Assembly: GCA_903915735.1 (NCBI GenBank)
Contig: CAIWUA010000047.1
Span: 1-33,127, forward strand
Reading direction: 5' to 3'
Length of the DNA: 33,127 nucleotides
DNA from: Candidatus Adlerbacteria bacterium
GTDB taxonomy: Bacteria; Patescibacteriota; Minisyncoccia; Phycocordibacterales; SBAW01
In this document: piece by piece, positions 325 through 26,884 of the stretch
Position numbering within the stretch: position 1 is the stretch's first letter
Layout: each line of letters starts with the position of its first letter
Notes under the pieces: model-generated
The model's input: the letters and a program-made list of their open reading frames with translations, nothing else
Database searches by the model: none
Told to the model about the DNA's origin: nothing
Program-made: the position numbers and the translations under genes

Positions 325-1578
325 ATGACACTCGAGCAATTTAAAAAAAAGGCTGCAAAAATCCCGGATGCGCCCGGGGTGTACTTTTTTTTGGCGAAAA
401 ATAAAAAGATACTGTACATCGGCAAAGCCACTAGCTTGCGTGACCGCGTGCGCAGCTATTTTGCCGGTGATTTGCATCAGGTGCGATCGCCGCTTATTGC
501 CAACATGGTCGAAAAGGCGGCTTCGATAGACTGGCGGCAAACCGACTCGGTGCTCGAGGCGTTGATACTTGAGGCAAATTTAATCAAGACCTACAAACCC
601 GCAGCAAATACTGACCTTAAAGACGATAAAAGCTTTAACTATGTAGTGGTCACGCAAGAGGATTATCCTCGCGTGCTAGTTGTCCGTGGCAGGGATTTGA
701 AAATTGAAAATTTAAAATTGAAAAATATTTTCGGTCCCTTCCCGCACGGGCTGCAGCTGCAGCAGGCGATGAAGTTGGTGCGCAAAATATTCCCATACCG
801 CGACAAATGTTTACCCTGCGAAGCCTTGGCGAAGAAGGGCGTGCGATGCAAACGTTGCTTTAACGCGCAAATAGGCTTGTGCCCCGGCGTGTGCTCGGGC
901 GAAACCAGCAAAGCCGAGTATGCTAAGACGGTGCGGCATATCGTGCTGCTCTTTAAGGGTAAAAAGAAAGAGCTTATAAAAGAGCTCGGCCGCGAGATGA
1001 AGCGCGCCGCTAAAGAAGAAAAGTTTGAAGAGGCCAAGCAGTTGCGTGGGCAGGTGTTTGCGCTCGGTCATATCCAAGACGTGTCTCTTATTAAAGACGA
1101 GTATCGAAACCCTCGGACATCCGATGTCCGAACTTTTAGAATCGAGGCCTATGATGTTGCGCACTTGCGCGGCGGCAGCAATGTCGGCGTGATGACGGTG
1201 GTCGAGGACGGGACGCCAAACAAAAAAGAGTACCGCAAATTTATCATCCGCACCGCCAAAGGTGGTGATGACGTCGGCGCGCTTAAAGAAATTTTGAGTC
1301 GTCGGTTGGGACACAACGAGTGGCCGCTACCGCGCTTGGTGGTGGTAGACGGCGCCACCGCGCAAATAAAGGCAGCCGAAAAGCTGCTTGAGTCGCTGGG
1401 GATAAAAATCCCCGTGGTCGGTGTAGTGAAGGACGAAAAGCATCGCCCGCGCGAGCTGCGCGGCGACAAAACAATAATCAAAGACCGCGAAAGGGATATC
1501 TTGCTGGCCAACGCCGAGGCCCACCGCTTTGCCATTGGCTATCACCGCAAAACCCTACGAAAAAGAGGGTATAATTAA
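325..1578 (+). CDS. uvrC: Excinuclease ABC subunit C (short form, no C-terminal HhH domain)
   Basis: GIY-YIG domain (PGVY...LYIGKA.SLRDRVRSYF), Cys-rich segment, UVR domain (EKFEEAKQLR), RNase H-like domain (RIEAYDVAH, VVDG, EAHRFAI). Follows uvrA. Confidence 0.93.
   Translation: MTLEQFKKKAAKIPDAPGVYFFLAKNKKILYIGKATSLRDRVRSYFAGDLHQVRSPLIANMVEKAASIDWRQTDSVLEALILEANLIKTYKPAANTDLKDDKSFNYVVVTQEDYPRVLVVRGRDLKIENLKLKNIFGPFPHGLQLQQAMKLVRKIFPYRDKCLPCEALAKKGVRCKRCFNAQIGLCPGVCSGETSKAEYAKTVRHIVLLFKGKKKELIKELGREMKRAAKEEKFEEAKQLRGQVFALGHIQDVSLIKDEYRNPRTSDVRTFRIEAYDVAHLRGGSNVGVMTVVEDGTPNKKEYRKFIIRTAKGGDDVGALKEILSRRLGHNEWPLPRLVVVDGATAQIKAAEKLLESLGIKIPVVGVVKDEKHRPRELRGDKTIIKDRERDILLANAEAHRFAIGYHRKTLRKRGYN
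697..724 (+). repeat. Heptamer tandem array (TTGAAAA)x4 inside uvrC
   Basis: TTGAAAA TTGAAAA TTTAAAA TTGAAAA, encoding LKIENLKLK. Reverse-complement family of the leuS array at 20353-20380. Confidence 0.85.
814..839 (+). repeat. 26-bp hairpin element (EALAKKG type) inside uvrC
   Basis: CCCTGCGAAGCCTTGGCGAAGAAGGG; 25/26 identical to 30804-30829 in ung. Confidence 0.9.
1113..1131. repeat. Palindromic element GGACATC-S-GATGTCC, copy 1 (inside uvrC)
   Basis: TCGGACATC-C-GATGTCCGA, 9-bp arms, encodes RTSDVR. Confidence 0.95.
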
Positions 1579-1581
1579 AAG

Positions 1582-2478
1582 ATGAGAACCGTGGTTGCGG
1601 TGTTGCGCGGCGGGCCGAGTAATGAGTATGACGTATCGCTCAAGACGGGGGCGAGCGTGCTTGGTGCACTCGACAAAGACAAGTACGAGGCGCGCGATAT
1701 TTTTATATCGCGCGGTGGCGTGTGGCACCTGCACGGCATCGAGATACATCCCGAGCGCGCCTTGCGCGGCGTCGACGTGGCCTTTAACGCGATGCATGGT
1801 GAGTATGGCGAGGACGGTGCGGCGCAGCGCTTGCTCGACAGTCTAGGTGTGGCATATACCGGCTCGGGCGCGCACCCGTCGGCGGTGGCTTTTGACAAGC
1901 ATCGCACGCGCGAGGCGGTCAAAAACCTGGGGGTAAAAATAGCCCATGGCAGGGTAGTGGATAATAGCGGCAGTGTCGAGAGTCTGGCGCACGAGCTCTT
2001 TCGTAGCTTCCCGCATCCGGCGATAATTAAGCCGGTCAGTGGCGGCTCATCTATAGGGATAGCGGTTGCAGAAAACTTTCATTCTCTGCAATGGGCTCTT
2101 GAGTGTGCATTCGAAATATCACCGCAGATATTGGTCGAAGAATATATAAAAGGCCGCGACGCAACAGTGGGTGTTATTGATAATTTTAGGAACGAAAAAA
2201 CATACACCACGATCCCGGTGCCGGTCAATTTTACCGAGCAAGAAAAAAATATATTAACCAATACAGCCCGCGCCGTGCACGAGGGGCTTGGGCTGGCGCA
2301 TTACTCGCGTTCTGACTTTATCGTCAGCCCGCGCGGCATCTACTTTTTAGAGGTCAACACCTTGCCGGGGCTTACCACCGAGTCGCTGCTCCCCAAAGCG
2401 CTCGAGGCCGGCGGGACCAAACTGTCGCATTTTCTCGACCATGTCATTTCGTTGGCGCGTGGTAGAAAACAAGCATGA
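1582..2478 (+). CDS. ddl: D-alanine--D-alanine ligase family ATP-grasp protein (omega loop apparently deleted)
   Basis: GGPSNEYDVS, HGEYGEDG, IIKP..GGSSIG, EEYI, SRSDF and LEVNTLPG motifs. Confidence 0.9.
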   Translation: MRTVVAVLRGGPSNEYDVSLKTGASVLGALDKDKYEARDIFISRGGVWHLHGIEIHPERALRGVDVAFNAMHGEYGEDGAAQRLLDSLGVAYTGSGAHPSAVAFDKHRTREAVKNLGVKIAHGRVVDNSGSVESLAHELFRSFPHPAIIKPVSGGSSIGIAVAENFHSLQWALECAFEISPQILVEEYIKGRDATVGVIDNFRNEKTYTTIPVPVNFTEQEKNILTNTARAVHEGLGLAHYSRSDFIVSPRGIYFLEVNTLPGLTTESLLPKALEAGGTKLSHFLDHVISLARGRKQA

Positions 2479-2807
2479 CCAAGCTGGCTAAAAAAAAGTG
2501 CAAGCCGTGCGAGGGCTGCGTCGACCCGCTGTACCCCGAGCAGTCCGAGGTGCTCTTAAAGCAGCTTAACCCCGAGTGGATGCTCATCGACCAGTGCCGC
2601 ATGCTGGCGCGTACATTTATCTTTAAAGATTTTAAACAGGCGCTCGCCTTTGCCAATAAGGTGGGCGCCATTGCCGAAGAGGAGGGTCACCATCCCGACC
2701 TCACCATAGGCTACGGCAATGTCGGGGTCGAGCTAACCACCCACGCCCTGGGTGGCCTCTCCGAAAACGATTTCATAGTGGCAGCCAAGATAGACGAAAT
2801 AAAATAA
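2475..2807 (+). CDS. phhB: Pterin-4-alpha-carbinolamine dehydratase
   Basis: AEEEGHHPDL, LTTHALGGLSENDFIVAAKID, N-terminal CKPCEG. ATGA overlap with ddl. Confidence 0.9.
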   Translation: MTKLAKKKCKPCEGCVDPLYPEQSEVLLKQLNPEWMLIDQCRMLARTFIFKDFKQALAFANKVGAIAEEEGHHPDLTIGYGNVGVELTTHALGGLSENDFIVAAKIDEIK

Positions 2808-2811
2808 CTCA

Positions 2812-2835
2812 GTAGTTAACTACGTAGTTAATTAC
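2812..2835. repeat. Tandem 12-mer palindrome forming a 24-bp near-perfect inverted repeat
   Basis: GTAGTTAACTAC GTAGTTAATTAC, lying between the convergent phhB and tRNA-Ala. Confidence 0.75.
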
Positions 2836-2842
2836 ATACTTG

Positions 2843-2915
2843 TGGACCCAACCGGGATCGAACCGGTCACCTCCTCATTGCAAATGAGGCGCTCTACCAA
2901 ATGAGCTATGGGCCC
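2843..2915 (-). tRNA. tRNA-Ala(TGC)
   Basis: Minus strand GGGCCCATAGCTCATTTGGTAGAGCG-CCTCA TTTGCAA TGAGG-...GGTTCGATCCC...TGGGTCCA. G3:U70 pair present; CCA not encoded. Confidence 0.97.
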
Positions 2916-2943
2916 TTATTAGATACTCTACCGTTTTTTGGGC

Positions 2944-2974
2944 AAAATAAAAAGCGCCCCCAGTTGGGGAGCGC
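2944..2974 (-). terminator. Intrinsic terminator for the 2981..3628 gene
   Basis: GCGCCCCC/GGGGAGCGC hairpin next to an A-tract (U-tract on the minus strand). Confidence 0.65.
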
Positions 2975-2980
2975 GTAATG

Positions 2981-3628
2981 TCAGGCAGGTTCTGGGCCAA
3001 ACGTGCCGCCTTTCGACCGGATGATGCTTTCGGCAGAAGGCATAGCCGGTGTCGGTGGTTCGGCCATGCGATTAAGCGCGGCTAGTACCCGTAGTCGGCG
3101 GAAGTGATGCCGCAACGGGGCCCAGACGAAAACATTCGACAGGCCGACTAATCCCAAAGCCAAAAACAAGTACGCGGACCAGTCATCGAACCCGAACCGC
3201 AGTAATCCGGCAATGCCTAAGACTAGGCAGAATCCGAGACCCGCGACGTCTTTAGGTCTTAAGGATTTTATTTCTGCCCAAGCTGACCATGGTTTTGTCC
3301 GCTCTTTTGCCAACCATATAACGTGTAGTGTTGGAGGATTAAGGAGCGGGTGAAAAGCCATCAACTTTTTGTCGGGTGTGATACCGAGAACGTAATAGAC
3401 CGAACCCCGCATAGGTTTGGGCTCGGCATAGATCACGACCTGATCGAGCAGGTTGCCGTGTTCGGTGAGATTGTAGTTGATGGCAAAGCGGACTTCTGAC
3501 GGCAGTCTGGCAAACTGCGCAAACGAACCGCGGCCACGAAAGGTAAAAGTGCTTTGTTTAAACGGCTCAAGCGCCGCTTGTACCACCGTCGCCTCGTCAT
3601 CGCTCAGGTAGCGCGCTATTTCGGTCAT
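2981..3628 (-). CDS. Hypothetical membrane protein (two C-terminal TM helices)
   Basis: 215-aa ORF, SD-like GGGAG upstream of ATG, hydrophobic hairpin, own terminator. No family recognised. Confidence 0.75.
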   Translation of the reverse strand: MTEIARYLSDDEATVVQAALEPFKQSTFTFRGRGSFAQFARLPSEVRFAINYNLTEHGNLLDQVVIYAEPKPMRGSVYYVLGITPDKKLMAFHPLLNPPTLHVIWLAKERTKPWSAWAEIKSLRPKDVAGLGFCLVLGIAGLLRFGFDDWSAYLFLALGLVGLSNVFVWAPLRHHFRRLRVLAALNRMAEPPTPAMPSAESIIRSKGGTFGPEPA

Positions 3629-3716
3629 GGCCGTCTCCCTTTTGTTACAAGTTGCGTCTGCAAAAAGTTAACCACATTTGTCGAGGTTAGACAATGTTTG
3701 CTATGATGCAACCACC

Positions 3717-3790
3717 GCACCTTTAGCTCAGCTGGTTAGAGCGCTGTACTCACACTACAGAGGTCTCAGGTTCGAATCCTGAAAGGTGCA
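3717..3790 (+). tRNA. tRNA-Val(CAC)
   Basis: GCACCTT acceptor pairs with AAGGTGC-A; anticodon arm CTGTA CTCACAC TACAG; GGTTCGAATCC T-arm. Confidence 0.95.
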
Positions 3791-3791
3791 C

Positions 3792-3820
3792 TTGACAGGA
3801 ATAGCAAAGGGGTGTATAAT
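3792..3820 (+). promoter_or_regulatory. Consensus sigma70 promoter
   Basis: TTGACA (3792-3797), 17-bp spacer, TATAAT (3815-3820): a perfect match. Confidence 0.85.
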
Positions 3821-3871
3821 GGCAACACCTCAGTTTGCGCAGTGCAGCTGATGAAATGAAAGGTCTTTCTA

Positions 3872-4033
3872 ATGTTGCCATCAACAAACCAGAGCGGGGC
3901 CTCTGGTAAAACACAGACCCCTAATCCGGCTGTCTGCAACTGTTGCGGTCGTCGCAAGCGTCTGGTCGAAGGGGTTTTGGTCTGCGCAGTCTGCGAGTCG
4001 GACAAGGCGCAGGAACCGGATCGCCAACGGTAG
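3872..4033 (+). CDS. Small zinc-ribbon-like protein, 53 aa (below the ORF track cutoff)
   Basis: MLPSTNQSGASGKTQTPNPAVCNCCGRRKRLVEGVLVCAVCESDKAQEPDRQR*; two CxxC knuckles; AAAGG upstream; lies between a perfect promoter and a terminator. Confidence 0.65.
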   Translation: MLPSTNQSGASGKTQTPNPAVCNCCGRRKRLVEGVLVCAVCESDKAQEPDRQR

Positions 4034-4087
4034 TCGGGGATAAAAATATTGTAAAAAGTGCGTGATGGCAGGGAGAAACGTCAAACG

Positions 4088-4122
4088 GGGTCGAGCTACT
4101 ATGCTCGACCCTTTCGCTTTTT
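4088..4122 (+). terminator. Intrinsic terminator
   Basis: GGGTCGAGC-tactat-GCTCGACCC followed by TTTCGCTTTTT. Confidence 0.8.
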
Positions 4123-4148
4123 ATTGCTATATTTGGGCTTACAGATTT

Positions 4149-4219
4149 CGGGCTGTAGTATACCGGTAGTACGCGCGCTTCGGGTGCGTGAAGACTGGGT
4201 TCGATTCCCAGCAGCCCGA
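4149..4219 (+). tRNA. tRNA-Pro(CGG)
   Basis: CGGGCTG/CAGCCCG-A acceptor; anticodon arm CGCGC TTCGGGT GCGTG; GGTTCGATTCC. Confidence 0.95.
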
Positions 4220-4245
4220 CAAGATGATATAGTTTTTTAGTTTAG

Positions 4246-4319
4246 GGGCCCGTAGTTAAGTGGTACAACGCTGCATTCGCATTGCAGAGGCGCGAGTTCG
4301 ATTCTCGCCGGGTCCACCA
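4246..4319 (+). tRNA. tRNA-Ala(CGC)
   Basis: GGGCCCG/CGGGTCC-A-CCA; anticodon arm CTGCA TTCGCAT TGCAG; G3:U70. Confidence 0.95.
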
Positions 4320-6418: not shown

Positions 6419-6427
6419 GTACTGAAT

Positions 6428-6437: not shown

Positions 6438-6445
6438 GACCAGCG

Positions 6446-6937: not shown

Positions 6938-7382
6938 AGGCTTGATCAAACAAACTGTGTATATAGGCAGTAAAGGCCGCCGGAGCCTGGGCAAGGTTTG
7001 TCGTGTGCTGCACCAGCACACTTTGGAAGCGAGACGCAAGGTCGCTCGCTCGGGCATCTTCGCCTACTGCTTTAAGCAGGGTTACGCGGTCTGAAATGTG
7101 TTGGACATGTATACGCAGGCTGGTCATGATGTTTTGTTGCGCAGCACTGTCGAGCTTGTCGTGCGAGGCGAGTGCCTGCGCTTCGTCGAGCCGCACGGTC
7201 ACGACCGAAAGATCCCAGTTTGCTTTAGCGTCGCCTCCTTGAGCGAGCACCCCCTCGACGTTTTCGTTAATATCAGTTTTAAAGCCCCACAACGGGTCGC
7301 CGGGGAGCGCATGATCGGCCAGCAAGGCGGTACCACCACCAAGCGCCGCTGCAATAATAAGAGCAATAACTATCGCGGGCAT
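6927..7382 (-). CDS. DUF5667-like secreted/anchored helical protein
   Basis: N-terminal hydrophobic segment followed by ALPGDPLWGFK..NE and RLDEA motifs. Confidence 0.75.
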   Translation of the reverse strand: MPAIVIALIIAAALGGGTALLADHALPGDPLWGFKTDINENVEGVLAQGGDAKANWDLSVVTVRLDEAQALASHDKLDSAAQQNIMTSLRIHVQHISDRVTLLKAVGEDARASDLASRFQSVLVQHTTNLAQAPAAFTAYIHSLFDQASNQ

Positions 7383-9749: not shown

Positions 9750-11304
9750 CTTCATCGAACAATTTAAAAAAGAGATAGAGGGCTTTACGCCGACGACGCG
9801 CCCCGCTAACAGCGGCGTGGTGTTGCGTGTGGGCGACGGTGTCGCCGAGATAGAGGGCCTGCGCGGCGCGGTAATGTCAGAGATGGTGCGTTTTGACACG
9901 GCACACGGCAAAAAGCTTGAGGGCGCCATAGGCACGAGCGAGATTTACGGCGTGGTCCTTAACCTCGAAGAGGAGTCGGTACGCGCGATTATTTTGGGCG
10001 ACACCAGCGCGGTTGCCGAGGGTATGGAGGTGATCCCGACCGGGCAGGTGCTGAGCATCCCGGTGGGGGATGCGCTCTTGGGTCGCGTGGTAAGCCCGCT
10101 CGGCGAGCCGCTGGATGCGCTTGGGCCGATTGCATCAGTAAAACGAAACCCCATCGAGCGCGAGGCCTACGGCGTGATGAGCCGCCAGTCGGTTAACCAG
10201 CCGCTGCACACCGGCATCAAGGCTATCGACTCGATGATCCCGATAGGCCGCGGCCAGCGCGAGCTTATCATTGGCGACCGCTACACCGGCAAGACCACCG
10301 TCGCTATCGACACCATCCTTAACCAAAAAGCCGAACCTAAAGAGTCGCGCCCGATTTGTATCTACGTATCGATCGGCCAAAAAGAAAGTAAGACCGCACG
10401 CCTGGTCGCGCAGCTTAAAGAGGCGGGTGCGATGGAGTACACCATTGTGGTTGATGCCGGTTCGTCGGCGCCGGCCGCGATGCAGTACCTGGCGCCGTTT
10501 GCCGGTGCGGCTATCGGCGAGTACTTTATGGACTCTGGTCGCGACGCGCTCATTATTTATGACGACCTGTCCAAACACGCGGTCGCGTACCGCCAGTTGT
10601 CATTGTTGCTCCGCCGTCCGCCGGGCCGCGAGGCATACCCGGGCGACGTCTTTTACTTGCACTCGCGTTTGCTCGAGCGTGCGGCCAAACTCAACAAAGA
10701 GTACGGCGGCGGCTCGTTGACCGCACTGCCGATTATCGAGACCCAAGAGGGCGACGTGTCGGGCTATATCCCGACCAACGTTATTTCGATTACCGACGGG
10801 CAAATCTTCCTCGAGACCGACCTCTTTAACAAAGGTATGCGCCCCGCGATTAACGCCGGCATTTCGGTATCGCGCGTCGGTTCGTCGGCACAAACCAAGG
10901 CGATGAAAAAGGTGTCCGGTCGCATCAAGCTCGAGTTGGCCCAGTTTAGAGAGCTCGAGGCGTTTATGCAGTTTGCCCAAGACCTCGATCCCGAGACTAA
11001 AAAGCGCATCGACAGCGGCCAGCGCATGATGGCGATTTTGCGCCAAAAAAACGGCCAGCCGATGGCGTTTGAGCGCCAAGCGGTGATTATCTATGCGGCA
11101 GTCAACGGCTACTTGTCGAAGGTATCCGTCGATCGCGTCCCCGAGTACGAAGAAAAGTTGATGACCTATCTCGATACGCACGCACCAGAGGTGCTTGCGA
11201 GCATTGAAAAGGCGCGCGAGATGGCAACCCAAACCGAAGAAGAGTTAAAGGTGCAGTTGGCTAAGTTTGCCGAGACACACCCCGACCTCGTGGCAAACAA
11301 CTAA
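9742..11304 (+). CDS. atpA: F1 ATP synthase subunit alpha
   Basis: [41 protein letters not shown] and [11 protein letters not shown]. Confidence 0.98.
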
Positions 11305-11305
11305 T

Positions 11306-13617
<2,312 letters not shown>

Positions 13618-13890: not shown

Positions 13891-13963
13891 GGGCCCGTAG
13901 CTCACTTGGTAGAGCGCTTCCATGGCATGGAAGAGGTAACCGGTTCGATCCCGGTCGGGTCCA
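13891..13963 (+). tRNA. tRNA-Ala(GGC)
   Basis: GGGCCCG/CGGGTCC-A; anticodon arm CTTCC ATGGCAT GGAAG; GGTTCGATCCC. Confidence 0.97.
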
Positions 13964-19653: not shown

Positions 19654-21939
19654 ATGGCTTCAGAATACGACTACAAAAAAATAGAGAAAAAGTGGCAGGA
19701 CACATGGGCTGCTTCTAGCGCCTTTAAAGCCAGCGACGACTCGTCTAAACCTAAAACGTACGTGCTCGACATGTTCCCGTACCCGTCGGGCGAGGGGCTG
19801 CACGTGGGGCACCCCAAGGGCTATATAGCGACCGATATTTACAGCCGCCACATGCGCATGCGCGGCCACAACGTGCTGCACCCCATGGGCTGGGACGCCT
19901 TTGGCCTGCCGGCCGAAAACTTTGCGCTTAAGAACAAAATCCATCCCCGCGCCGCGGTCGAGCAAAACATCGCCAACTTTAAAGAGCAGCTGGCGCACAT
20001 AGGCTTTGACTACGACTGGTCGCGCGAAGTAAATACCACCGACCCTGCGTTTTACAAATGGACGCAGTGGATATTTTTGCAAATGTTTAAAAAGGGTTTG
20101 GCGTACCAAAGCAACGAGCCCATCAACTGGTGTCCGTCGTGCATGACTGGCCTTGCCAACGAAGATTTAGACGGCGATGTGTGCGAGCGCTGCGGCACCA
20201 AGGTCGAGAAAAAGAGTTTGCCGCAGTGGGTGCTCAAAATCACCAACTATGCCGACCGCATGCTCCAAGATTTGGACGCGCTGCAGTGGCCCGAGTATAT
20301 AAAGGAAGCCCAGCGCAACTGGATAGGAAAATCTGAGGGGGCAGAACTAGAATTTTCAATTTCCAATTCTCAATTTTCAATTAAGGTGTTTACGACGCGG
20401 CCGGATACGCTGTTTGGTGCGACGTACATGGTGTTGGCGCCCGAGCACCCACTTGTCGCTCAGTTACAAATAGAAAATCGCGCCGAAGTTGATTCGTACG
20501 TCGTCGCCTCAAAAGCCAAGACCGAGATAGAGCGCGGCGCGGCTAAAGACAAGACAGGTGTTGAGTTAAAGGGGATTAAGGCAATAAATCCGGCCAACAA
20601 AGAAGAGATTCCCGTCTTTGTCGCCGACTACGTGCTGTGGGGTTATGGCACCGGCGCGATTATGGCCGTTCCCGCGCACGACGAGCGCGACTTTGAGTTT
20701 GCCAAAAAGTTTAACTTGCCCGTGCGCGAGATAGAGCTCGAAGATTCTAAAAAGATTGTCGAAAAAGTTGGCGGTACCTGGACAGTTAACTACAAACTCA
20801 AAGACTGGGTGTTTAGCCGGCAGCGCTATTGGGGCGAGCCTATCCCTATTATTCATTGCCCCAAAGACGGCGCTGTAGCCGTGCCCGAGGATCAGTTGCC
20901 TGTACTTTTGCCCGAAGTCGCTTCGTACGAACCGTCAGGTACCGGCGAGTCGCCCTTGGCTACCATTACCGAGTGGGTCAATACCACGTGCCCGACCTGC
21001 GGCGGCCCCGCCAAACGCGAGACCAACACCATGCCGCAATGGGCCGGCAGCAGCTGGTATTACCTGCGCTTTATGGATCCGCACAATACCGAGGCTTTGG
21101 TTGATACAAAAAAAGAAAAGTATTGGGCACCCGTGGATGTATATGTCGGCGGCGACCATGCGGTGCGGCATCTTATTTATGCGCGGTTTTGGCACAAGTT
21201 TTTGTATGACATTGGCGCCGTGAGCACCATCGAGCCTTTTGCGCGGCTCGAGTTTTTGGGCTTTATTTTGGCCGAGGACGGCCGCAAGATGAGCAAACGC
21301 TACGGCAACGTCATCGACCCGACCGATGTTGTCGTGGAGCACGGAGCGGATGTCTTTAGACTCTATGAGATGTTTATGGGTCCGTTCGAAAACACAACCG
21401 CGTGGAACCCGGCCTCGATAAGCGGCGTCGGGCGCTTTGTCGAGCGCGTGTGGAGGGTGGGGACATCCGATGTCCTTAGGACATCGGATGTCCTAGCTTT
21501 GGACACCTTACTCGAGCAGACAGTCAAAAAAGTCGGCGATGACATCGAGTCGTTTAAGTTCAACACGGCAGTGAGCCAGATGATGATACTGCTTAATGCG
21601 ATCGAAAAAGAAAAGATGATAGGCAAGGGACAGTGGCAAAAGTTCCTGAGCATCCTGTTGCCTTTTGCGCCGCACATTGCGTCCGAGTTGGCACAAGTAG
21701 CCGGCATTGATATATCAGCGTGGCCGGCAGTCGACACCGGCAAGTTGGTGGCCGACACGGTGGTTATGGGTGTGCAGGTTAACGGCAAACTCAGGGGCTC
21801 GATAGAACTCGCCCCGACTGCCTCTGAAAAAGAGGCAGTCGCAGCCGCCAAAAACGACCCCAAAATCGCCAAATGGCTGACGGGGGAGCCGACCAAGGTC
21901 GTATATGTCGCCGGCAAGATTCTTAACCTGGTCGTATAG
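19654..21939 (+). CDS. leuS: Leucine--tRNA ligase
   Basis: MFPYPSG.GLHVGH, FTTRPDT and GTGAIMAVPAHDERD (CP1 editing domain), SRQRYWG.PIP, KMSKR, VQVNGKLR. Confidence 0.97.
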   Translation: MASEYDYKKIEKKWQDTWAASSAFKASDDSSKPKTYVLDMFPYPSGEGLHVGHPKGYIATDIYSRHMRMRGHNVLHPMGWDAFGLPAENFALKNKIHPRAAVEQNIANFKEQLAHIGFDYDWSREVNTTDPAFYKWTQWIFLQMFKKGLAYQSNEPINWCPSCMTGLANEDLDGDVCERCGTKVEKKSLPQWVLKITNYADRMLQDLDALQWPEYIKEAQRNWIGKSEGAELEFSISNSQFSIKVFTTRPDTLFGATYMVLAPEHPLVAQLQIENRAEVDSYVVASKAKTEIERGAAKDKTGVELKGIKAINPANKEEIPVFVADYVLWGYGTGAIMAVPAHDERDFEFAKKFNLPVREIELEDSKKIVEKVGGTWTVNYKLKDWVFSRQRYWGEPIPIIHCPKDGAVAVPEDQLPVLLPEVASYEPSGTGESPLATITEWVNTTCPTCGGPAKRETNTMPQWAGSSWYYLRFMDPHNTEALVDTKKEKYWAPVDVYVGGDHAVRHLIYARFWHKFLYDIGAVSTIEPFARLEFLGFILAEDGRKMSKRYGNVIDPTDVVVEHGADVFRLYEMFMGPFENTTAWNPASISGVGRFVERVWRVGTSDVLRTSDVLALDTLLEQTVKKVGDDIESFKFNTAVSQMMILLNAIEKEKMIGKGQWQKFLSILLPFAPHIASELAQVAGIDISAWPAVDTGKLVADTVVMGVQVNGKLRGSIELAPTASEKEAVAAAKNDPKIAKWLTGEPTKVVYVAGKILNLVV
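20353..20380 (-). repeat. Heptamer tandem array (TTTTCAA)x4 inside leuS
   Basis: TTTTCAA TTTCCAA TTCTCAA TTTTCAA, encoding FSISNSQFS. Confidence 0.85.
21461..21495. repeat. Palindromic element GGACATC-S-GATGTCC, copies 3 and 4 (tandem, inside leuS)
   Basis: GGACATCCGATGTCC-tta-GGACATCGGATGTCC-ta, 18-bp period, encodes GTSDVLRTSDVL. Confidence 0.95.
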
Positions 21940-21948
21940 TCGGTCAGT

Positions 21949-21979
21949 TTGACATTAAAAGTAGGGCGTGATATACAAT
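21949..21979 (+). promoter_or_regulatory. Putative sigma70 promoter, likely leaderless transcript
   Basis: TTGACA at 21949-21954; TGATATACAAT ending 7 nt before ATG 21987. Confidence 0.6.
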
Positions 21980-21986
21980 ACCACAC

Positions 21987-23033
21987 ATGGTAACCCAAAC
22001 AGCGGACAAAACAGGCTTTAAACCCAAGGCAATTGTTAAGCGTCTTATGGTCGCTCTCCCCGAGCGCTCGCGCGCCGTGCTCGAGGCGCGTTTTGGCCTT
22101 GGTACTAATACCGAAAAGGTCACTTTAGAGGCTATCGGCAAGCGCTACGGCATCACCCGCGAGCGTGTCCGCCAGATAGAGAACCACGCTTTGGCGAGCC
22201 TCAAAAAGTCGCCTGCTTTCGAGTCGGCCGACGCGGCCTTTCACGAGCTTGAGCGTATTATCGACAGCCTTGGCGGCATTGTCTGCGAGGACGACCTGCT
22301 CAACTTTATGACCAAGGACAAGTCGATGCAAAACCACATCTACTTCCTCCTGGTGCTTGGCGACCCGTTTAAATACCGCAAAGAGGATGACGAGGTCAAC
22401 CGCTGCTGGTATGTCGACCCCGAGTTGGCCGGCAAGGTTGAGGATGCGCTTAAGCGCCTCTACGGTGGCCTGAGCGACGAGGATTTGATCCCCGAGGGCG
22501 AGATGATAGACCGTTTTCTTAAAGAGCTCCAGACCATCAACGACAAGCACCGCAACGACGAGGTGCTCAAGCGCTGGCTCTCGATCTCTAAAAACATCGG
22601 CAAAAACCCGCTCGGCGAGTGGGGTCAGGCCAGCTCGCAAAACGTTAAGACCAAGGGCGTGCGCGACTATGCCTACTTGGCGGTTAAAAAGCACGGCTCT
22701 CCGCTGCACTTCCGCGAGGTGGCCAACATGATTGAAAAGACCTTTGACCGCAAGGCGCACGTCGCCACCACCCACAACGAGCTTATTAAAGACCCGCGCT
22801 TTGTGTTGGTGGGCCGCGGCATGTACGCGCTGCGCGAGTGGGGGTACACCCAAGGTGTCGTGCGCGACGTCATCCGCGAGGTCCTGCGCCAGAGCGGCCC
22901 GTTGACCAAAGACCAAATAATCGAAAAAGTGCTCAAAGAGCGCCACGTCAAGCCGGGCACGATAGTGGTCAACCTCCAAAATCAAAAATACTTTAAGCGC
23001 GGCAAAGACAGCAAATTTACCCTCGTCAAGTAA
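21987..23033 (+). CDS. Sigma70 region-4 HTH protein with C-terminal HARE-HTH-like domains
   Basis: RFGL....TLE.IG..YGITRERVRQIE..AL (sigma R4); PLHFREVA...HNELIKDPRFVLVGRGMYALREWG. No sigma region 2 visible. Confidence 0.85.
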   Translation: MVTQTADKTGFKPKAIVKRLMVALPERSRAVLEARFGLGTNTEKVTLEAIGKRYGITRERVRQIENHALASLKKSPAFESADAAFHELERIIDSLGGIVCEDDLLNFMTKDKSMQNHIYFLLVLGDPFKYRKEDDEVNRCWYVDPELAGKVEDALKRLYGGLSDEDLIPEGEMIDRFLKELQTINDKHRNDEVLKRWLSISKNIGKNPLGEWGQASSQNVKTKGVRDYAYLAVKKHGSPLHFREVANMIEKTFDRKAHVATTHNELIKDPRFVLVGRGMYALREWGYTQGVVRDVIREVLRQSGPLTKDQIIEKVLKERHVKPGTIVVNLQNQKYFKRGKDSKFTLVK

Positions 23034-23034
23034 C

Positions 23035-23060
23035 AAAAAACTCCCGAAAGGGAGTTTTTT
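23035..23060. terminator. Bidirectional intrinsic terminator
   Basis: AAAAAACTCCC-GAAA-GGGAGTTTTTT between convergent genes. Confidence 0.9.
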
Positions 23061-23406
23061 AATGCCCGCCGCCTCCACTTTTGCCGGAGGCTAGGCCCCT
23101 CAGCCACGGTATCCACAGGGGAGTAAGTAAAAAGAGTGAGAGCCACAGGTAGGTGAGCGGTACTTGGCCCAAGATGACGCGCAGCACCTCCCACAGGCCA
23201 AGCACAACCATGCACACCAAGAGGCCCCAGACCGCGCGGCCGCGCGCATGGGCCATGTGGTGGTCGTCCTCGCCATAGGTAAACACGTGCCTAAAGCCGC
23301 TGCCAAAGCCCGCCATAAACAACAGCACCCCAAGCGCGCCTAAAAAGGCAAACAGATACTCGAGGTAGCGCAGCGGGTCGTGGTACAACGCCGTGAGGAA
23401 GTCCAT
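23059..23406 (-). CDS. TrbC/VirB2-like (T4SS pilin-like) membrane protein
   Basis: TM, then GF.....GE......AR....WGL.......LW, then TM: the pilin-like pattern. Confidence 0.65.
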   Translation of the reverse strand: MDFLTALYHDPLRYLEYLFAFLGALGVLLFMAGFGSGFRHVFTYGEDDHHMAHARGRAVWGLLVCMVVLGLWEVLRVILGQVPLTYLWLSLFLLTPLWIPWLRGLASGKSGGGGH

Positions 23407-23412
23407 AAAATA

Positions 23413-23424
23413 TATTGTACAATA
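23413..23424. promoter_or_regulatory. Putative bidirectional -10 element (palindrome TATTGTACAATA)
   Basis: TACAAT on both strands, 8 nt from ATG 23432 and 7 nt from ATG 23406, in a 25-bp divergent gap. Confidence 0.6.
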
Positions 23425-23431
23425 GAAATTA

Positions 23432-24808
23432 ATGTTCTTGCATCACGAAGCCGAAGGGATAGACAAGTGGCTTGGCGGATGGGGTATCGAAACCATCATT
23501 GTCGCGCCGGTTGCCATGCTCATATTCGCCTTTGTGGCGATGGGGTACGACCCGGATGCCGTGTCGGCGACCTTTGCCGCGTTTGTGGCCACCTCGCCGG
23601 TGTGGTTGCCGCTCGTGCTCTTTATTATGTTTTGGAGGCGCTGGATGCACTACATCCGTTTTGCGTTTTGGTTTACCCAGCCGATGGTGTTGCTGCACAT
23701 CGAGCTGCCCGCCGAGGTACAAAAGACCCCGCTCGCTATCGAGCTGGTGCTGACAGCACTTTTTAATAGCGGCGGCGAGACCACGTTTATCGCCCGTATT
23801 TGGGAGGGCAAGTTTCGCGCGGTGACCACGCTCGAGATAGCCTCGACCGGCGGCCGCATTGGTTACTATGTGCACCTGCGCCGCGCTTGGAAGGATGTTT
23901 TTGAGGCGCGGCTCTACGGCCAGTTCCCCGAGGCGCAGATTACCGAGGTCGACGACTATGTGACCGCGCTTGGGTATCACCCGAGCACCCACGAGCTGTG
24001 GGGGACCGAGTACAAAAAAAGCTCGCCCGACGCAGTACCTATCCGAAACTATATAGACTGGGGGCTCGACAAAGACCCGGACAAACCCGAAAAGCAGATA
24101 GACCCGCTCACGAGCATACTCGAACTCTTTTCGGTGTTAGGGCCCGACGAGCACATGTGGTTTCAGATAGTGATGAAGGCTCGCAAAAAGGACGAGTGGT
24201 ACGGCTTTTATAAAAAAACCGACAGCTACGTCGAGGGCGGCAAGAAAGCGATTGAGGATATATTTAAAGAGGCGGTCGCGCGCGCTCAGTCGCGGGTTAA
24301 AGACGAACAACAAAAAGAGGCTGCTGCCGGCCGCGGTGTGCAGCTGCTGTCCCAGCCCGAAAAGGATCGCGTCGAGGCTATCGAGCGCAACTTTAGTAAA
24401 CTCATTTTCGAATGCGGTTTTCGCGTTATGTATATAGCCAAAAAAGACAAGTTTGACGGCGCTAAAATAGGCACGATTATCAACTTTTTTGTACCGTTTC
24501 GGTATCCTAACTACAACGCGCTCGGTGTCACGCGCGGCATGCAGATATTTGACTATCCGTGGCAGGACTACAAAGGCATCCGCCGGCGGATGATACAGCG
24601 GCGTATGTTCTTTTGGCACAAGCATCGCGCCTACTTTTATGTCCCGTACGACCAGGTGCCCGTTATGATGACTACCGAGGAGCTGGCCACGCTGTGGCAC
24701 TTCCCAAGCTCGGTAGTTAAGACCCCGGGGTTGGTGCGCGTGGCAAGCCGCGTAGGCGAGGCGCCTCCCAACTTGCCCACCTCGCGCGATGCTTTGCAAG
24801 GCAAATGA
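23432..24808 (+). CDS. Conserved membrane-anchored hypothetical protein (resembles the N-terminal region of CPR T4SS coupling-type proteins)
   Basis: LEIAS, LYGQFPEAQITEVDDY, PIRNY, IDPL and EELATLWHFP motifs; two N-terminal TM helices; no Walker motif. Confidence 0.75.
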   Translation: MFLHHEAEGIDKWLGGWGIETIIVAPVAMLIFAFVAMGYDPDAVSATFAAFVATSPVWLPLVLFIMFWRRWMHYIRFAFWFTQPMVLLHIELPAEVQKTPLAIELVLTALFNSGGETTFIARIWEGKFRAVTTLEIASTGGRIGYYVHLRRAWKDVFEARLYGQFPEAQITEVDDYVTALGYHPSTHELWGTEYKKSSPDAVPIRNYIDWGLDKDPDKPEKQIDPLTSILELFSVLGPDEHMWFQIVMKARKKDEWYGFYKKTDSYVEGGKKAIEDIFKEAVARAQSRVKDEQQKEAAAGRGVQLLSQPEKDRVEAIERNFSKLIFECGFRVMYIAKKDKFDGAKIGTIINFFVPFRYPNYNALGVTRGMQIFDYPWQDYKGIRRRMIQRRMFFWHKHRAYFYVPYDQVPVMMTTEELATLWHFPSSVVKTPGLVRVASRVGEAPPNLPTSRDALQGK

Positions 24809-25833
24809 ACATCCCAAAATTAAAGCCAGGGTCGCATGTATTCCGCAGCACGGCCGTGTGTGACGAAAACTGCTGGGAGTGCCGCGCCTATGACCGCTTG
24901 CTGCCGCTGGCCTTTTTAGGCGGCGTTTTGCTGTATCTTATTTACTTTTTGACGCTCGGTGCGCCGATAGACTTCCCCATAGGGGCGTACGTGCGTGTTA
25001 AAGACGGCCAAACGCTGGGGCAGGTGGGCGAGCAGCTCAAAGCCAAACATCTTATCCGGTCGGTCGCTATTTTTGAGGGGTTGGTGCGGCTCATTGGCAA
25101 TGACAAAAAGATATATGCGGGTGAGTACTTTTTTTCGGGCAAAGAGAGCGGTTGGCGCGTGGCCGAGCGGCTCGCGTTTGGCGACTTTGAGTTGACGCCT
25201 ATACGCATGGTCTTTTATGAGGGGCTGACCGCTAAAGACATGGCCTCCTTGTTAGCTAAAAAAATACCCGACTTTGACGCCAACGCATTTTTTGCTGCCG
25301 GGCAACCCAAAGAGGGGTACCTGTTCCCCGACACCTACTTTGTCGTACCGGGCGAGGACCCGCTGCTGTTGCTGCGCTCGATGCAAAATAATTTTAGTAC
25401 GCACGTATTTACCGCGTCGAGCACGATAGCCAAGTTTGGCAAGCCGCTGCCCGACATTTTGGTGATGGCGTCGCTCCTCGAGCGCGAGGCTGCCGACAGC
25501 CAGAGCCGCCGCATGATAGCGGGCATTTTGTGGCACCGTATTGCTATCGGCATGCCGCTGCAGGTCGACGCCGTCTTCCCCTACATTATTGGCAAAAACT
25601 CCTTTCAACTGACCAAAGCCGACCTCAAGGTCGACTCGCCGTACAACACCTACACGCATAAAGGCCTCCCGCCCGGCCCCATAGCCAACCCCGGGATGAG
25701 CTCAATCGTGGCGGCCGTGACACCGATAAAGTCAAACTATCTATTTTACTTGTCTGACAAACAGGGCAACTTCCATTATAGTGCCACGTATGCGGGCCAG
25801 CTCGCCAACCAGCGCAAATATCTTGGATACTAA
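24805..25833 (+). CDS. mltG: Endolytic transglycosylase MltG
   Basis: EGYLFPDTY, ASLLERE, MPLQVDA and SPYNTY..KGLPPGPIANPG. Confidence 0.95.
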   Translation: MNIPKLKPGSHVFRSTAVCDENCWECRAYDRLLPLAFLGGVLLYLIYFLTLGAPIDFPIGAYVRVKDGQTLGQVGEQLKAKHLIRSVAIFEGLVRLIGNDKKIYAGEYFFSGKESGWRVAERLAFGDFELTPIRMVFYEGLTAKDMASLLAKKIPDFDANAFFAAGQPKEGYLFPDTYFVVPGEDPLLLLRSMQNNFSTHVFTASSTIAKFGKPLPDILVMASLLEREAADSQSRRMIAGILWHRIAIGMPLQVDAVFPYIIGKNSFQLTKADLKVDSPYNTYTHKGLPPGPIANPGMSSIVAAVTPIKSNYLFYLSDKQGNFHYSATYAGQLANQRKYLGY

Positions 25834-26884
25834 AGGCAAAAAAGTGTTTGCCGGCCTCTCCGGCGGGGTAGACTCGGCCGTGTCGGCGGCTTTGCTGCAG
25901 CAGCAGGGCTACGACGTGCACGGCGTGTTTATCCGCATCGCGCTGCCGGGCTACCCGTGCTCGGCCGGTGTCGACAAAATAGACGCCATGCGCGTGGCAG
26001 CGCATCTTAAGATTTCTTTTGTCGAGATAGACATGTCCGAGGAGTATGAAAGGGAGGTGTTTAAAACCAGCATGCGCGAGTTTGCAAAGGGTCGCACCCC
26101 TAACCCCGACGCGCTATGCAATCGCGAGATAAAGTTTGGCCTTTTTTATGAGTGGGCCATGAGTGAGGGCGCCGACTTTGTTGCGACCGGCCACTACGCC
26201 CAGGTTGATAGTCGGACATCCGATGTCCGACTATTGGCCGGGGCAGATGAGAACAAAGATCAAAGCTACTTTTTGTGGATGGTACCCGAAACAAAGCTGG
26301 CCAAGACACTCTTCCCCGTTGGGGGGATAAAAAAGCCCGAGGTCCGCGCGCTGGCTAAAAAGTTTAAGCTGCCCAACGCCGAGCGCAAAGACAGCCAAGG
26401 GTTGTGCTTTTTGGGCGAGGTCTCGATAGACGACATGTTGCATCGAGAGATCGAGCTGGTGCCGGGCGACGTACTCAACGAGGCGGGCGAGGTAGTGGGC
26501 GCCCATGAGGGCGCACAGGCCTACACGCTCGGGCAGCGGCACGGCTTTACTCTTTTTAGCCAAACGCCGGACTCGGTGCCGTACTATGTGATAGAGAAAG
26601 ATGTTGAGTTTAATACTATTACCGTGTCGCCCAACAAATTTCCTACCAATGCCGCCAAGACAGAGGTCTTGCTTACTGAAACTAATTGGATAGGTGAGAT
26701 AAAAAATGGTAATTATTTTGCACGCTATCGGTATCGGCAAGAACTAATACCGGCAATCAAAGAGACTGACAACAAAATTACTTTGCTCAAGCCGCATTAC
26801 GTGCCGCTTGGGCAGTCGCTGGTGCTTTATGAGGGGGAGAGATGCTTGGGCGGTGGTATTATTGACCGCGCTATAATAAAGTAA
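25823..26884 (+). CDS. mnmA: tRNA-specific 2-thiouridylase MnmA
   Basis: SGGVDS, TPNPD..CN..IKFG, ATGHYA, KDQSYFL, KDSQGLCF and YTLGQR. Probable TTG start at 25823 overlapping the mltG end. Confidence 0.95.
   Translation: MDTKGKKVFAGLSGGVDSAVSAALLQQQGYDVHGVFIRIALPGYPCSAGVDKIDAMRVAAHLKISFVEIDMSEEYEREVFKTSMREFAKGRTPNPDALCNREIKFGLFYEWAMSEGADFVATGHYAQVDSRTSDVRLLAGADENKDQSYFLWMVPETKLAKTLFPVGGIKKPEVRALAKKFKLPNAERKDSQGLCFLGEVSIDDMLHREIELVPGDVLNEAGEVVGAHEGAQAYTLGQRHGFTLFSQTPDSVPYYVIEKDVEFNTITVSPNKFPTNAAKTEVLLTETNWIGEIKNGNYFARYRYRQELIPAIKETDNKITLLKPHYVPLGQSLVLYEGERCLGGGIIDRAIIK
26208..26234. repeat. Palindromic element GGACATC-S-GATGTCC, copy 5 (inside mnmA)
   Basis: ATAGTCGGACATC-C-GATGTCCGACTAT, 13-bp perfect arms, encodes SRTSDVRL. 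Confidence 0.95.

What the first reader, a model, noticed from the sequence alone, without database searches (positions are those of the whole stretch)
1113..26234. A 15-bp palindrome GGACATC(C/G)GATGTCC recurs in-frame inside four unrelated housekeeping genes, always encoding (R/G)TSDV
Seen: five copies at 1113-1131 (uvrC), 11943-11969 (atpG), 21461-21495 (leuS, tandem pair) and 26208-26234 (mnmA); none was seen between genes. The arms extend beyond the core with different, still self-complementary flanks (TC/GA, AAACTA/TAGTTT, ATAGTC/GACTAT), so symmetry itself is being maintained. All copies use the same frame, although the other two frames of the core (GHPMS, DIRCP) contain no stop. With 14 fixed bases, about 1e-4 chance occurrences are expected per window. 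Family knowledge: each site is a variable loop (UvrC UVR-to-RNase H linker, gamma loop before Y..EP, LeuS after RVWR, MnmA after ATGHYA). Coding palindromic elements are known in Rickettsia (RPEs), and DNA-uptake sequences accumulate in preferred frames in Neisseria and Haemophilus. Inference: this is either a miniature REP-like element spread in trans (for example by a RAYT/HUH tyrosine transposase) or a binding/uptake site for a dimeric protein written into coding DNA. Best candidate for an undescribed system here.
Basis: partly seen in the sequence, partly recalled or inferred. Interest (0 to 1): 0.9.

Follow-up and report, generated by a model that had tools for sequence, protein, structure and literature searches.

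The report
Mobile hairpin repeats inside essential genes
The 15-base palindrome found inside four housekeeping genes belongs to a small family of selfish DNA hairpins tied to a hairpin-cutting transposase-like gene elsewhere in this tiny genome; elements of this kind are known, but here they sit mostly inside genes rather than between them.

Summary
GGACATCSGATGTCC occurs 5 times in the window against 0 expected, in frame in uvrC, atpG, leuS and mnmA.

It is the core of a 33-bp perfect palindrome, CCAAAACTAGGACATCSGATGTCCTAGTTTTGG, with 10 exact-core copies in the 682-kb genome. One full copy abuts the stop codon of a Y1/HUH transposase-like gene on contig C66. Its predicted fold is closest to the E. 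coli REP-associated tyrosine transposase, RAYT. Homologues of this gene are bracketed by the same core in G038, L092, L096 and L108. In 21 of 30 homologue loci, a lineage-specific palindrome brackets the gene, against 0 of 120 control loci.

I read it as a REP/RAYT-like system. TSDV is not conserved in orthologues. The shared frame follows from TAG codons in the arms. Other frames are used elsewhere.

Three features are unusual. Eight of 10 copies are intragenic. Other palindrome families occupy the same protein loops in relatives. The copies replace the loops rather than lengthen them.

Verdict: new variant of a known kind, moderate interest.

The parts
1105..1139 (.). Copy in the uvrC linker between the UVR motif and the RNase H-like domain. 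The perfect palindrome is 1113-1131, with worn arms around it. It is read as RNPRTSDVRTF.
   Evidence: ssDNA hairpin -7.3 kcal/mol
11940..11972 (.). Copy in the atpG loop. It is the 33-mer with 2 mismatches to the full element; the perfect palindrome is 11943-11969. It is read as [11 protein letters not shown].
   Evidence: hairpin -10.6 kcal/mol; spanned with 0 differences by X1 contig record 1
21461..21495 (.). Inverted doublet in leuS: a core with central C, the spacer TTA, then a core with central G. It resembles a REPIN and folds as one 33-bp hairpin. It is read as GTSDVLRTSDVL.
   Evidence: hairpin -17.9 kcal/mol; spanned by X1 contig record 4
26208..26234 (.). Copy in the mnmA loop after ATGHYAQ. 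Its arms, ATAGTC/GACTAT, differ from the full element at three paired positions, and every change is compensated. It is read as VDSRTSDVRL.
   Evidence: hairpin -11.8 kcal/mol; spanned by X1 contig record 8
325..1578 (+). Host gene uvrC (417 aa)
   Evidence: Pfam GIY-YIG, UVR, UvrC_RNaseH_dom
11267..12229 (+). Host gene atpG (ATP synthase gamma, 320 aa)
   Evidence: Pfam ATP-synt, 1.6e-79
19654..21939 (+). Host gene leuS (761 aa)
   Evidence: Pfam tRNA-synt_1, tRNA-synt_1_2, Anticodon_1
25781..26884 (+). Host gene mnmA (367 aa)
   Evidence: Pfam tRNA_Me_trans and its M and C domains

Best explanation
The palindrome is the core of a REP-like hairpin element, roughly 19-37 bp as a single copy and 33 bp as an inverted doublet. 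It belongs to a REP/RAYT-type system.

Proposed mechanism:
- The partner is a single-copy Y1/HUH transposase-like gene on contig C66 of the same genome (7379-8020, minus strand, 213 aa), outside the window.
- As single-stranded DNA each copy folds into a perfect hairpin.
- The RAYT-like protein is inferred to bind that hairpin, cut it and rejoin it through its HUH motif and catalytic tyrosine. This would seed new copies in trans.
- About 88% of this 0.68-Mb genome lies under long open frames. New copies therefore mostly land in genes.
- A copy survives only in a loop that tolerates any sequence and in a frame without a stop. For the full element in this genome that is the [10 protein letters not shown] frame alone, because the arms carry TAG in the other two frames.

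Shown: the repeat family, its hairpin potential, its physical association with the gene in five genomes, co-variation of the core with the gene's phylogeny, and the HUH and Tyr residues and fold.

Inferred: catalysis, mobilisation in trans, and the selective filter.
For: 1. Repeat family. There are 10 exact cores in the genome. Three of them are the identical 33-bp perfect palindrome (C6, C53, C66). A further 29-bp variant on C29 carries only paired, compensated changes.

2. The gene in this genome. PF01797 (Y1_Tnp) hits three genes in G000. The C66 gene scores 40.6 bits against a cut-off of 23. The palindrome at C66:7344-7380 ends at the gene's stop codon. Contig C66 breaks 2 bp upstream of the gene's start, and contig C53 begins exactly with the 33-mer.

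3. The same arrangement elsewhere. In G038:C49 the homologue (63% identity) has the core 13 bp beyond one end and 35 bp beyond the other, and a third copy in frame inside itself. In L092, L096 (titled Kaiserbacteria) and L108, two cores about 705 bp apart bracket a homologue (E 1e-61 to 1e-74).

4. Generality. In 21 of 30 homologue loci from relatives, a pair of palindromes with the same core lies 500-950 bp apart around the gene. The figure is 0 of 120 for housekeeping control loci. Each lineage has its own palindrome.

5. Co-variation. All 5 genes flanked by GGACATC fall in one clade (support 98/99) of 9, together with genes flanked by the related cores GGACAC-GGG-GTGTCC and GACTT-CGT-AAGTC. 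None of 500 label shuffles was as clustered. The two closest homologues among 40 relatives, G007 (71%) and G038 (63%), lie in genomes that also carry the motif.

6. The protein. PNH(Y/F)H and Y128 (in YIHLN) are invariant in 20 sequences. The AlphaFold2 model has pLDDT 83.8. The best PDB fold match is 4er8_A, the E. coli RAYT bound to a REP hairpin (E 3.7e-5), followed by IS200, IS608 and ISDra2 TnpA.

7. Hairpins. Free energies as ssDNA are -7.3 to -18.5 kcal/mol, with z-scores of -3.3 to -11.9.

8. Doublets. Most have opposite central bases, meaning the two cores are inverted, as in REPINs.

9. No protein-level selection. TSDV is absent from the 29 other rows in each of the AtpG, MnmA and UvrC alignments. 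In LeuS it is present only in G019.
Against: - In G000 only one flank of the gene can be seen, because the contig ends there.
- NCBIfam REP_Tyr_transpos scores 46.3 bits, below its cut-off of 80.
- There is no GTAG or CGTC tag next to the G000 copies.
- The copy number is low: 10.
- G019 carries a doublet, but its best homologue of the C66 gene is only 38% identical.
- G007's closest homologue is flanked by a variant core, not the exact one.
- At all five sites compared with relatives, the copies add only -2 to +4 residues although they encode 6-12. Simple insertion does not predict this.
- No empty-site allele was found. Nearest LeuS relatives are at most 67% identical in metagenome contigs and about 80% within the genus (G003: 84% and 79% over the two halves). 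No listed joint skips a copy in the runs laid (26 further joints were not shown).
- No biochemistry was possible.
Confidence: 0.8

Rival explanations
1. The unit 'palindrome - Y1 gene - palindrome' is an autonomous IS200/IS605-type insertion sequence. The scattered solo palindromes are then its end-derived miniature derivatives (PATE/MITE-like), rather than REPs served by a resident RAYT.
For: - The gene is bracketed by inverted palindromes about 660-740 bp apart, which is what a minimal IS looks like.
- Distribution is patchy: 4 of 41 relatives, and 2 of 401 in the phylum draw including G000.
- The gene tree puts rows from another family (G038) and a record titled Kaiserbacteria next to G000. 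This fits horizontal movement.
- IS200-family TnpA structures are close fold matches.
Against: - Each gene is single-copy. The three Y1 genes of G000 are only 33-48% identical to one another.
- No second copy of the whole unit was seen in G000.
- The dispersed copies are bare hairpins.
- The best fold match is the RAYT, not an IS transposase.
Confidence: 0.1
2. The core is a binding site or DNA-uptake signal for a dimeric host protein. It would be written into coding DNA by mutation plus biased uptake or recombination, which could explain why loops are replaced rather than lengthened.
For: - The copies replace loop codons with almost no net change in length. Uptake sequences in coding DNA behave this way (recalled knowledge, not tested here).
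- Saccharibacteria are naturally competent (abstract of PMC10187176 in the listing).
- The 15-bp core is invariant across distant lineages while the arms vary.
Against: - Ten copies in 682 kb is far below known uptake-signal densities (recalled).
- Only 1 of 400 other genomes in a draw across the phylum has the motif, and there are 0 copies in 1.13 Mb of related loci.
- The copies bracket a Y1 transposase-like gene in five genomes.
- The core changes along that gene's phylogeny.
Confidence: 0.04
3. The hairpin or its peptide serves the host genes, for example as an mRNA structure that tunes translation, or as a useful (R/G)TSDV loop, and is kept for that reason.
For: The hairpins are stable. 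Many hosts act on nucleic acids: UvrC, DnaG, LeuS, LysS, MnmA, Dus and TsaD.
Against: - TSDV is absent from orthologues.
- Across 54 CPR-titled loci, the 33 copies in long ORFs use all three frames: 15 TSDV, 14 GHxMS, 4 DIxCP. A further 31 copies lie outside long ORFs.
- Different palindrome families fill the same loops in relatives.
Confidence: 0.04
4. The copies are assembly or library artefacts.
For: Two contigs break at or beside copies.
Against: - The copies are in frame in conserved genes.
- Independent contigs of run X1 reproduce them with 0 differences.
- The core is present in many unrelated public assemblies with lineage-specific arms.
Confidence: 0.01

Closest known systems
REP/RAYT ('REPtron') systems and REPINs of Proteobacteria (E. 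coli REP with TnpA-REP, PDB 4er8; Pseudomonas fluorescens REPIN/RAYT)
   Same: - A single-copy Y1/HUH transposase-like gene is flanked on both sides by its own short palindrome.
- The same palindrome is scattered through the genome.
- Inverted doublets occur.
- Each gene lineage has its own palindrome.
- The best fold match is 4er8.
   Different: - Here the palindromes are perfect, with only 1-3 unpaired central bases.
- No GTAG or CGTC tag lies beside the G000 copies.
- There are about 10 copies, not hundreds.
- Eight of 10 copies lie inside genes.
- The protein carries about 80-100 extra C-terminal residues compared with the 165-residue chain of 4er8.
- The protein falls below the NCBIfam RAYT cut-off.
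Intragenic GTAG/CGTC REPs (Opitutus terrae and others) and Rickettsia palindromic elements (Di Nocera et al. 2013, PMC3733652; passages read)
   Same: Short palindromic repeats lie in frame inside functional genes, often DNA-repair genes and tRNA synthetases, and are tolerated as extra or altered loop residues.
   Different: - In those species intragenic copies are a minority of large extragenic families. The paper states that most REPs are intergenic.
- The classic RPE-1 elements are longer (the paper calls them longer palindromic insertions).
- Here most copies are intragenic, and they replace loops instead of adding 20-30 residues.
IS200/IS605 insertion sequences and their palindrome-associated miniature derivatives
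   Same: Both use a Y1/HUH enzyme that recognises hairpins at the element ends on single-stranded DNA. The folds match.
   Different: Here the gene is single-copy in each lineage, there is no TnpB, and the dispersed units are bare hairpins.
DNA uptake sequences of Neisseria and Haemophilus
   Same: Both are short fixed motifs found inside coding DNA, in tolerant protein regions, without lengthening the protein.
   Different: Uptake sequences are about 100-fold denser, are not palindromic in themselves and are not tied to a transposase gene (recalled). Here distribution is patchy and tracks the Y1 gene.

Membership tests
REP/RAYT system | A Y1 transposase-like gene with an HUH motif and a catalytic tyrosine | tested here: met
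   Pfam Y1_Tnp 40.6 bits, cut-off 23. PNHxH and Y128 are invariant in 20 homologues. The fold is closest to 4er8_A, E 3.7e-5.
REP/RAYT system | The gene is flanked on both sides by copies of the repeat | tested here: met
   Both sides are flanked in G038, L092, L096 and L108. In 21 of 30 homologue loci the gene is bracketed by a lineage-specific palindrome, against 0 of 120 controls. In G000 only the 3' side is visible, because the contig ends 2 bp before the start codon.
REP/RAYT system | The same palindrome is dispersed elsewhere in the genome | tested here: met
   10 exact cores on 6 contigs, plus one compensated variant.
REP/RAYT system | The repeats are extragenic and abundant (tens to hundreds) | tested here: not met
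   8 of 10 exact copies lie inside Pfam-supported genes. There are only 10 copies.
REP/RAYT system | A conserved GTAG or CGTC tetranucleotide at one end of the palindrome | tested here: not met
   G000 copies read CTAG or CTCG at the junction and share no flank beyond the palindrome. In other CPR-titled records, and records titled only 'bacterium', the commonest arm is GTA|TAC (6 of 51 copies). With the first G of the core this makes GTAG.
REP/RAYT system | Match to the curated RAYT equivalog model (NCBIfam NF047646) | tested here: not met
   46.3 bits against a cut-off of 80.
REP/RAYT system | The protein binds and cleaves its palindrome as single-stranded DNA | not testable with these tools
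   Only hairpin potential could be computed.
IS200/IS605 insertion sequence | Several near-identical copies of the whole gene-bearing unit in one genome | tested here: not met
   The three Y1 genes of G000 share 33-48% identity.
DNA uptake sequence | High, fairly even density, shared by all close relatives | tested here: not met
   10 copies in 682 kb. The motif is in 4 of 41 relatives and 2 of 401 genomes of the phylum draw, including G000.

The most novel reading that the evidence does not exclude
In these ultra-small genomes the hairpin elements do not simply insert. They overwrite unconstrained protein loops, and different palindrome families succeed one another at the same codons of essential genes: the uvrC linker, the atpG loop and leuS sites. 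The variable loops of housekeeping proteins would then be the working niche of REP-like DNA where there is almost no intergenic space. This would imply a replacement step that has not been described for RAYT-type enzymes, either hairpin-for-hairpin exchange or hairpin-triggered repair.
Probability: 0.25. Interest if true: 0.7.

Novelty: new variant of a known kind. Interest (0 to 1): 0.5.

Why it matters
REP/RAYT systems have been studied almost entirely in Proteobacteria, as extragenic repeats. The present case differs in four ways.
- A related family appears in very small, apparently Patescibacteria-type genomes.
- The palindromes are perfect and specific to each gene lineage.
- Most copies are translated as parts of essential proteins.
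- The same protein loops carry different palindrome families in different relatives.

If this holds more widely, three things follow. It gives a clean system for asking how selfish hairpin DNA persists where intergenic space is nearly gone. It shows that short 'lineage-specific insertions' in conserved proteins of such genomes can be repeat-derived, which matters for alignments and phylogenies. And the paired gene and palindrome sets are ready-made material for studying how Y1/HUH enzymes recognise hairpins.

My searches found no paper that links RAYT or REPIN with Patescibacteria, Saccharibacteria or the Candidate Phyla Radiation (listings only, and the hits for 'rayt' were unrelated). Supplementary files could not be opened. 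Additional files 3 and 4 of PMC3733652 list intragenic REPs and REPtrons and may hold related cases.

Tried and rejected
1. Conserved peptide. TSDV is not present at these sites in orthologues. Rejected.

2. Known RNA. Rfam finds only 5 tRNAs in the window and nothing at the copies.

3. C6:4973 (AGACATCAGATGTCT) as a family member. Rejected: it encodes the conserved DnaG stretch LCRHLMST, which G007 also has as LCRHLVST. It is a chance near-palindrome.

4. An early reading that L011 and L062 carry copies in UvrC. This was wrong. Those ORFs are TsaD.

5. Hits in Streptomyces and other non-CPR records. I treat them as chance or as one conserved gene. About 1,100 chance hits are expected in 596 Gb by my own arithmetic. 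Only 3 of 38 such copies have 4 or more extra paired bases, against 23 of 44 in CPR-titled records (covering the first 80 of 119 loci).

6. Larger insertions at the mnmA loop in G019, G015 and G036. None contains a palindrome with a stem of 7 or more (G027 could not be parsed). That loop is simply permissive.

7. A search for empty-site alleles. The metagenome scan gave no LeuS relative above 67% identity. In the runs laid, no listed joint skips a copy; 26 joints were not shown. X2 and X3 had no contig across the sites. This is no evidence either way.

8. A target-site motif beside the copies. None was seen by eye in the flanks. No statistics were done.

9. phmmer against the PDB gave only a marginal ISDra2 TnpA match, E 0.39. 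The fold search was needed.

Full report
**The observation.** GGACATCSGATGTCC occurs five times in the 33-kb window, at 1115, 11949, 21461, 21479 and 26214. None appeared in 100 dinucleotide-preserving shuffles, and allowing two mismatches adds nothing. The perfect palindromes run over 1113-1131, 11943-11969, 21461-21493 (a doublet that is itself one 33-bp palindrome) and 26208-26234. The host ORFs are UvrC, ATP synthase gamma, LeuS and MnmA by Pfam. All five copies are read as (R/G)TSDV. Logan contigs of run X1 span the atpG, leuS and mnmA copies without a difference. X1 holds 0.94 of the sampled words, so it is probably the source sample and is not independent data.

**The whole element.** The window is contig C47 of a 682,096-bp genome in 74 contigs, 55% G+C. 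That genome holds 10 exact cores.
- Three copies (C6, C53, C66) are the identical 33-bp perfect palindrome CCAAAACTAGGACATCSGATGTCCTAGTTTTGG. The other copies are shortened or diverged versions of it.
- The central base, C or G, is the only asymmetric position, so it marks orientation. The genome has five of each.
- A 29-bp variant on C29 (AAAACTTGGTCATCGGATGACCAAGTTTT) differs from the 33-mer at six positions and is still a perfect palindrome. The mnmA copy differs from the full element at three paired arm positions, all compensated. Symmetry is therefore maintained.
- As single-stranded DNA the copies fold with -7.3 to -18.5 kcal/mol.

**Why one frame.** In the full 33-mer, two of the three frames hit TAG in an arm on either strand. 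Only [10 protein letters not shown] is open. Of the eight exact copies that lie in Pfam-supported genes in this genome, seven use that frame: UvrC, AtpG, LeuS twice, MnmA, DnaG and class-I LysS. The copy in Dus has CTC/GAG arms without TAG and is read as KLGHRMSEF. Two copies are intergenic. In 54 CPR-titled public loci (64 copies), 33 copies lie in long ORFs (15 TSDV, 14 GHxMS, 4 DIxCP) and 31 do not. The shared frame is thus a stop-codon filter, not a property of the core.

**Not a conserved peptide.** In alignments with orthologues from up to 40 relatives, TSDV is absent from the 29 other rows of each of the AtpG, MnmA and UvrC alignments. In LeuS it occurs only in G019, which carries its own doublet at that site. 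All four sites are loops of variable length.

**The partner gene.** PF01797 (Y1_Tnp) finds three genes in this genome.
- The one on C66 (7379-8020, minus strand, 213 aa) has a full palindrome, 7344-7380, ending at its stop codon. Contig C66 stops 2 bp upstream of the start codon, and contig C53 starts exactly with the 33-mer. A second flanking copy is plausible but not shown.
- In G038, a genome of another family in the same order, the homologue (63% identity) has the same core 13 bp beyond one end and 35 bp beyond the other, plus a third copy in frame inside itself.
- Among the 119 public loci that hold the core, a profile of the protein finds five homologous ORFs. In three of them (L092, L096 titled Kaiserbacteria, L108) the locus's two cores, about 705 bp apart, bracket the ORF.
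- Among 30 homologue loci from the 40 relatives, 21 have a pair of palindromes with the same core 500-950 bp apart around the gene, against 0 of 120 housekeeping control loci. Each lineage has its own palindrome. G007's gene (71% identity, the closest) is flanked on both sides by CCCAAAACTTGGACACGGGGTGTCCAAGTTTTGGG, which has the same arms and a changed core.
- On a maximum-likelihood tree of 33 homologues, all five GGACATC-flanked genes fall in one clade (support 98/99) of nine. The clade also holds the related cores GGACAC-GGG and GACTT-CGT. None of 500 label shuffles was as clustered.

**The protein.**
- Pfam Y1_Tnp is above its cut-off. NCBIfam REP_Tyr_transpos is the only NCBIfam hit, but it is below cut-off at 46.3 bits against 80.
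- Twenty homologues share an invariant PNH(Y/F)H (the HUH motif) and Y128 in YIHLN.
- The AlphaFold2 model (pLDDT 83.8, pTM 0.82) is closest in the PDB to 4er8_A, the E. coli REP-associated tyrosine transposase bound to a REP hairpin (E 3.7e-5). IS200, IS608 and ISDra2 TnpA follow.
- The three Y1 genes of G000 are 33-48% identical to one another. Each is therefore single-copy, as RAYTs are. The C60 gene has its own palindrome, TACCGAGGTTCAACCTCGGTA, around and inside it.

**Distribution.** The exact core is patchy.
- It occurs in 4 of 41 genomes of the relatives' draw (G000, G007, G019, G038).
- It occurs in 2 of 401 genomes of an even draw across the phylum, including G000.
- It has 0 copies in 1.13 Mb around 80 metagenomic LeuS homologues.
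By my reading of their titles, 54 of these come from Patescibacteria-type MAGs: Saccharibacteria, Paceibacterota, Kaiser-, Giovannoni-, Moran-, Nomura- and Jorgensenbacteria and others. In the first 80 loci, 23 of 44 copies in CPR-titled records have 4 or more further paired bases, against 3 of 38 elsewhere.
- The single hits in Streptomyces and similar genomes are within the chance expectation by my own arithmetic.
- Doublets mostly pair a C-centred core with a G-centred one. The same doublet, with spacer CAG, sits in different genes in G019 (LeuS), G007 and L119.

**What is unusual.**
1. Eight of 10 copies are inside genes. About 88% of the genome lies under open frames of 150 aa or more, a mechanical proxy for coding density.
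2. Other palindrome families occupy the same loops in relatives.
   - G007 has GACGTAAGTCAGACTTACGTC in the atpG loop.
   - G038 has a 46-bp doublet of CATAGGWCSGWCCTATG in the uvrC linker.
   - G009 and G020 carry the palindromes that flank their own Y1 genes inside uvrC and leuS.
   - The first two are repeated families in their genomes, at 4 and 6 places, and the second occurs at 12 places in G019.
3. The copies hardly lengthen the loops. Against the nearest relatives (76-84% protein identity), the change is:
   - -2/+1 residues in UvrC,
   - 0 in AtpG,
   - +2 in LeuS,
   - +4 in MnmA,
   - +3/+4 in DnaG.

   The copies encode 6-12 residues, and the DnaG copy is a perfect 33-mer. Plain insertion does not predict this. 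The cause could be insertion together with deletion, selection for loop length, or replacement of an earlier hairpin. No empty-site allele was available to decide.

**Comparison with what is known.** REP/RAYT systems and REPINs are established. Intragenic REPs in DNA-repair genes and tRNA synthetases, and the in-frame Rickettsia elements, are described in PMC3733652 (passages read). My searches of the paper library found nothing that links RAYT or REPIN with Patescibacteria (listings only). Supplements were closed. The system here works like REP/RAYT but fails several defining features: extragenic location, abundance, the GTAG/CGTC tag and the curated model cut-off. I therefore file it as a new variant of a known kind.

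**Limits.** That G000 is a Patescibacteria-type organism is an inference. It rests on genome size and on the titles of records that share the element, not on a marker-gene call. Catalysis and mobility are inferred, not shown. ORFs outside the Pfam-checked genes are mechanical.

Noticed in passing
window 19654-21939 (leuS) versus G003, G017, G018 and others: This LeuS is 761 aa. Most relatives in the genus have open frames of 940-1000 aa, in which the match splits at about residue 360. G003 is 84% and 79% identical on the two sides. They therefore carry an extra segment of about 180 aa that G000 lacks.
   Followed up: no
G000 contigs C7, C26, C31, C36, C68, C74: A second perfect palindrome family, CCTGCCTGCCGGCAGGCAGG, has 6 copies. 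All lie in open frames of 118 aa or more and read LPAGR(Q/A/S). No partner gene was sought.
   Followed up: partly
G000 contigs C29, C37, C44, C54, C60, C73; also leuS of G023 and G027: A third family is built around ACGATATATCGT (for example AAAGACTACGATATATCGTAGTCTTT). It has 6 copies plus one variant, mostly in long open frames. Related palindromes sit at one leuS site in two relatives from different families.
   Followed up: partly
window 2816-2831: TTAACTACGTAGTTAA is a 16-bp palindrome just after the ORF that ends at 2807. It is repeated at C7:2170 and, in longer form, at C29:22661.
   Followed up: no
uvrC linker of G007, G021, G022 and G023 (L226, L250, L233, L251): These relatives share a linker S(P/L)STxxG(A/T)I(R/H). 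In three of them (G007, G021, G023) its codons form a palindrome (GATTCGC...GCGAATC in G007) whose right arm overlaps the conserved RIE codons.
   Followed up: no
G000 C66 end and C53 start: Contig C66 ends 2 bp upstream of the Y1 gene's start codon. Contig C53 begins exactly at base 1 of the 33-bp palindrome. The assembly appears to break at these hairpins.
   Followed up: partly
L011 992-1035 and L062 2647-2690: Two public MAG records, titled Saccharibacteria and Paceibacterota, carry a doublet of the core at the same site of TsaD, between ISRLAE and LPRPM. The arms differ between them, and the proteins are 65% identical.
   Followed up: partly
G019 contigs C56 and C30: G019 has two LeuS genes (784-aa and 981-aa open frames). 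Only the longer one carries the doublet. This could be a paralogue or bin contamination.
   Followed up: no
G000 C29:6632-7675: The diverged copy (GGTCATCGGATGACC core) lies in frame in a reverse-transcriptase ORF (Pfam RVT_1). The same ORF also holds a copy of the ACGATATATCGT family.
   Followed up: no
mnmA loop in G019, G015 and G036 (L368, L369, L371): The loop that holds the copy in G000 carries insertions about 14-26 residues longer in these relatives, with no palindrome of stem 7 or more.
   Followed up: yes
window 2843-4316 and 13891-13963: Five tRNA genes are the only Rfam matches in the window.
   Followed up: no
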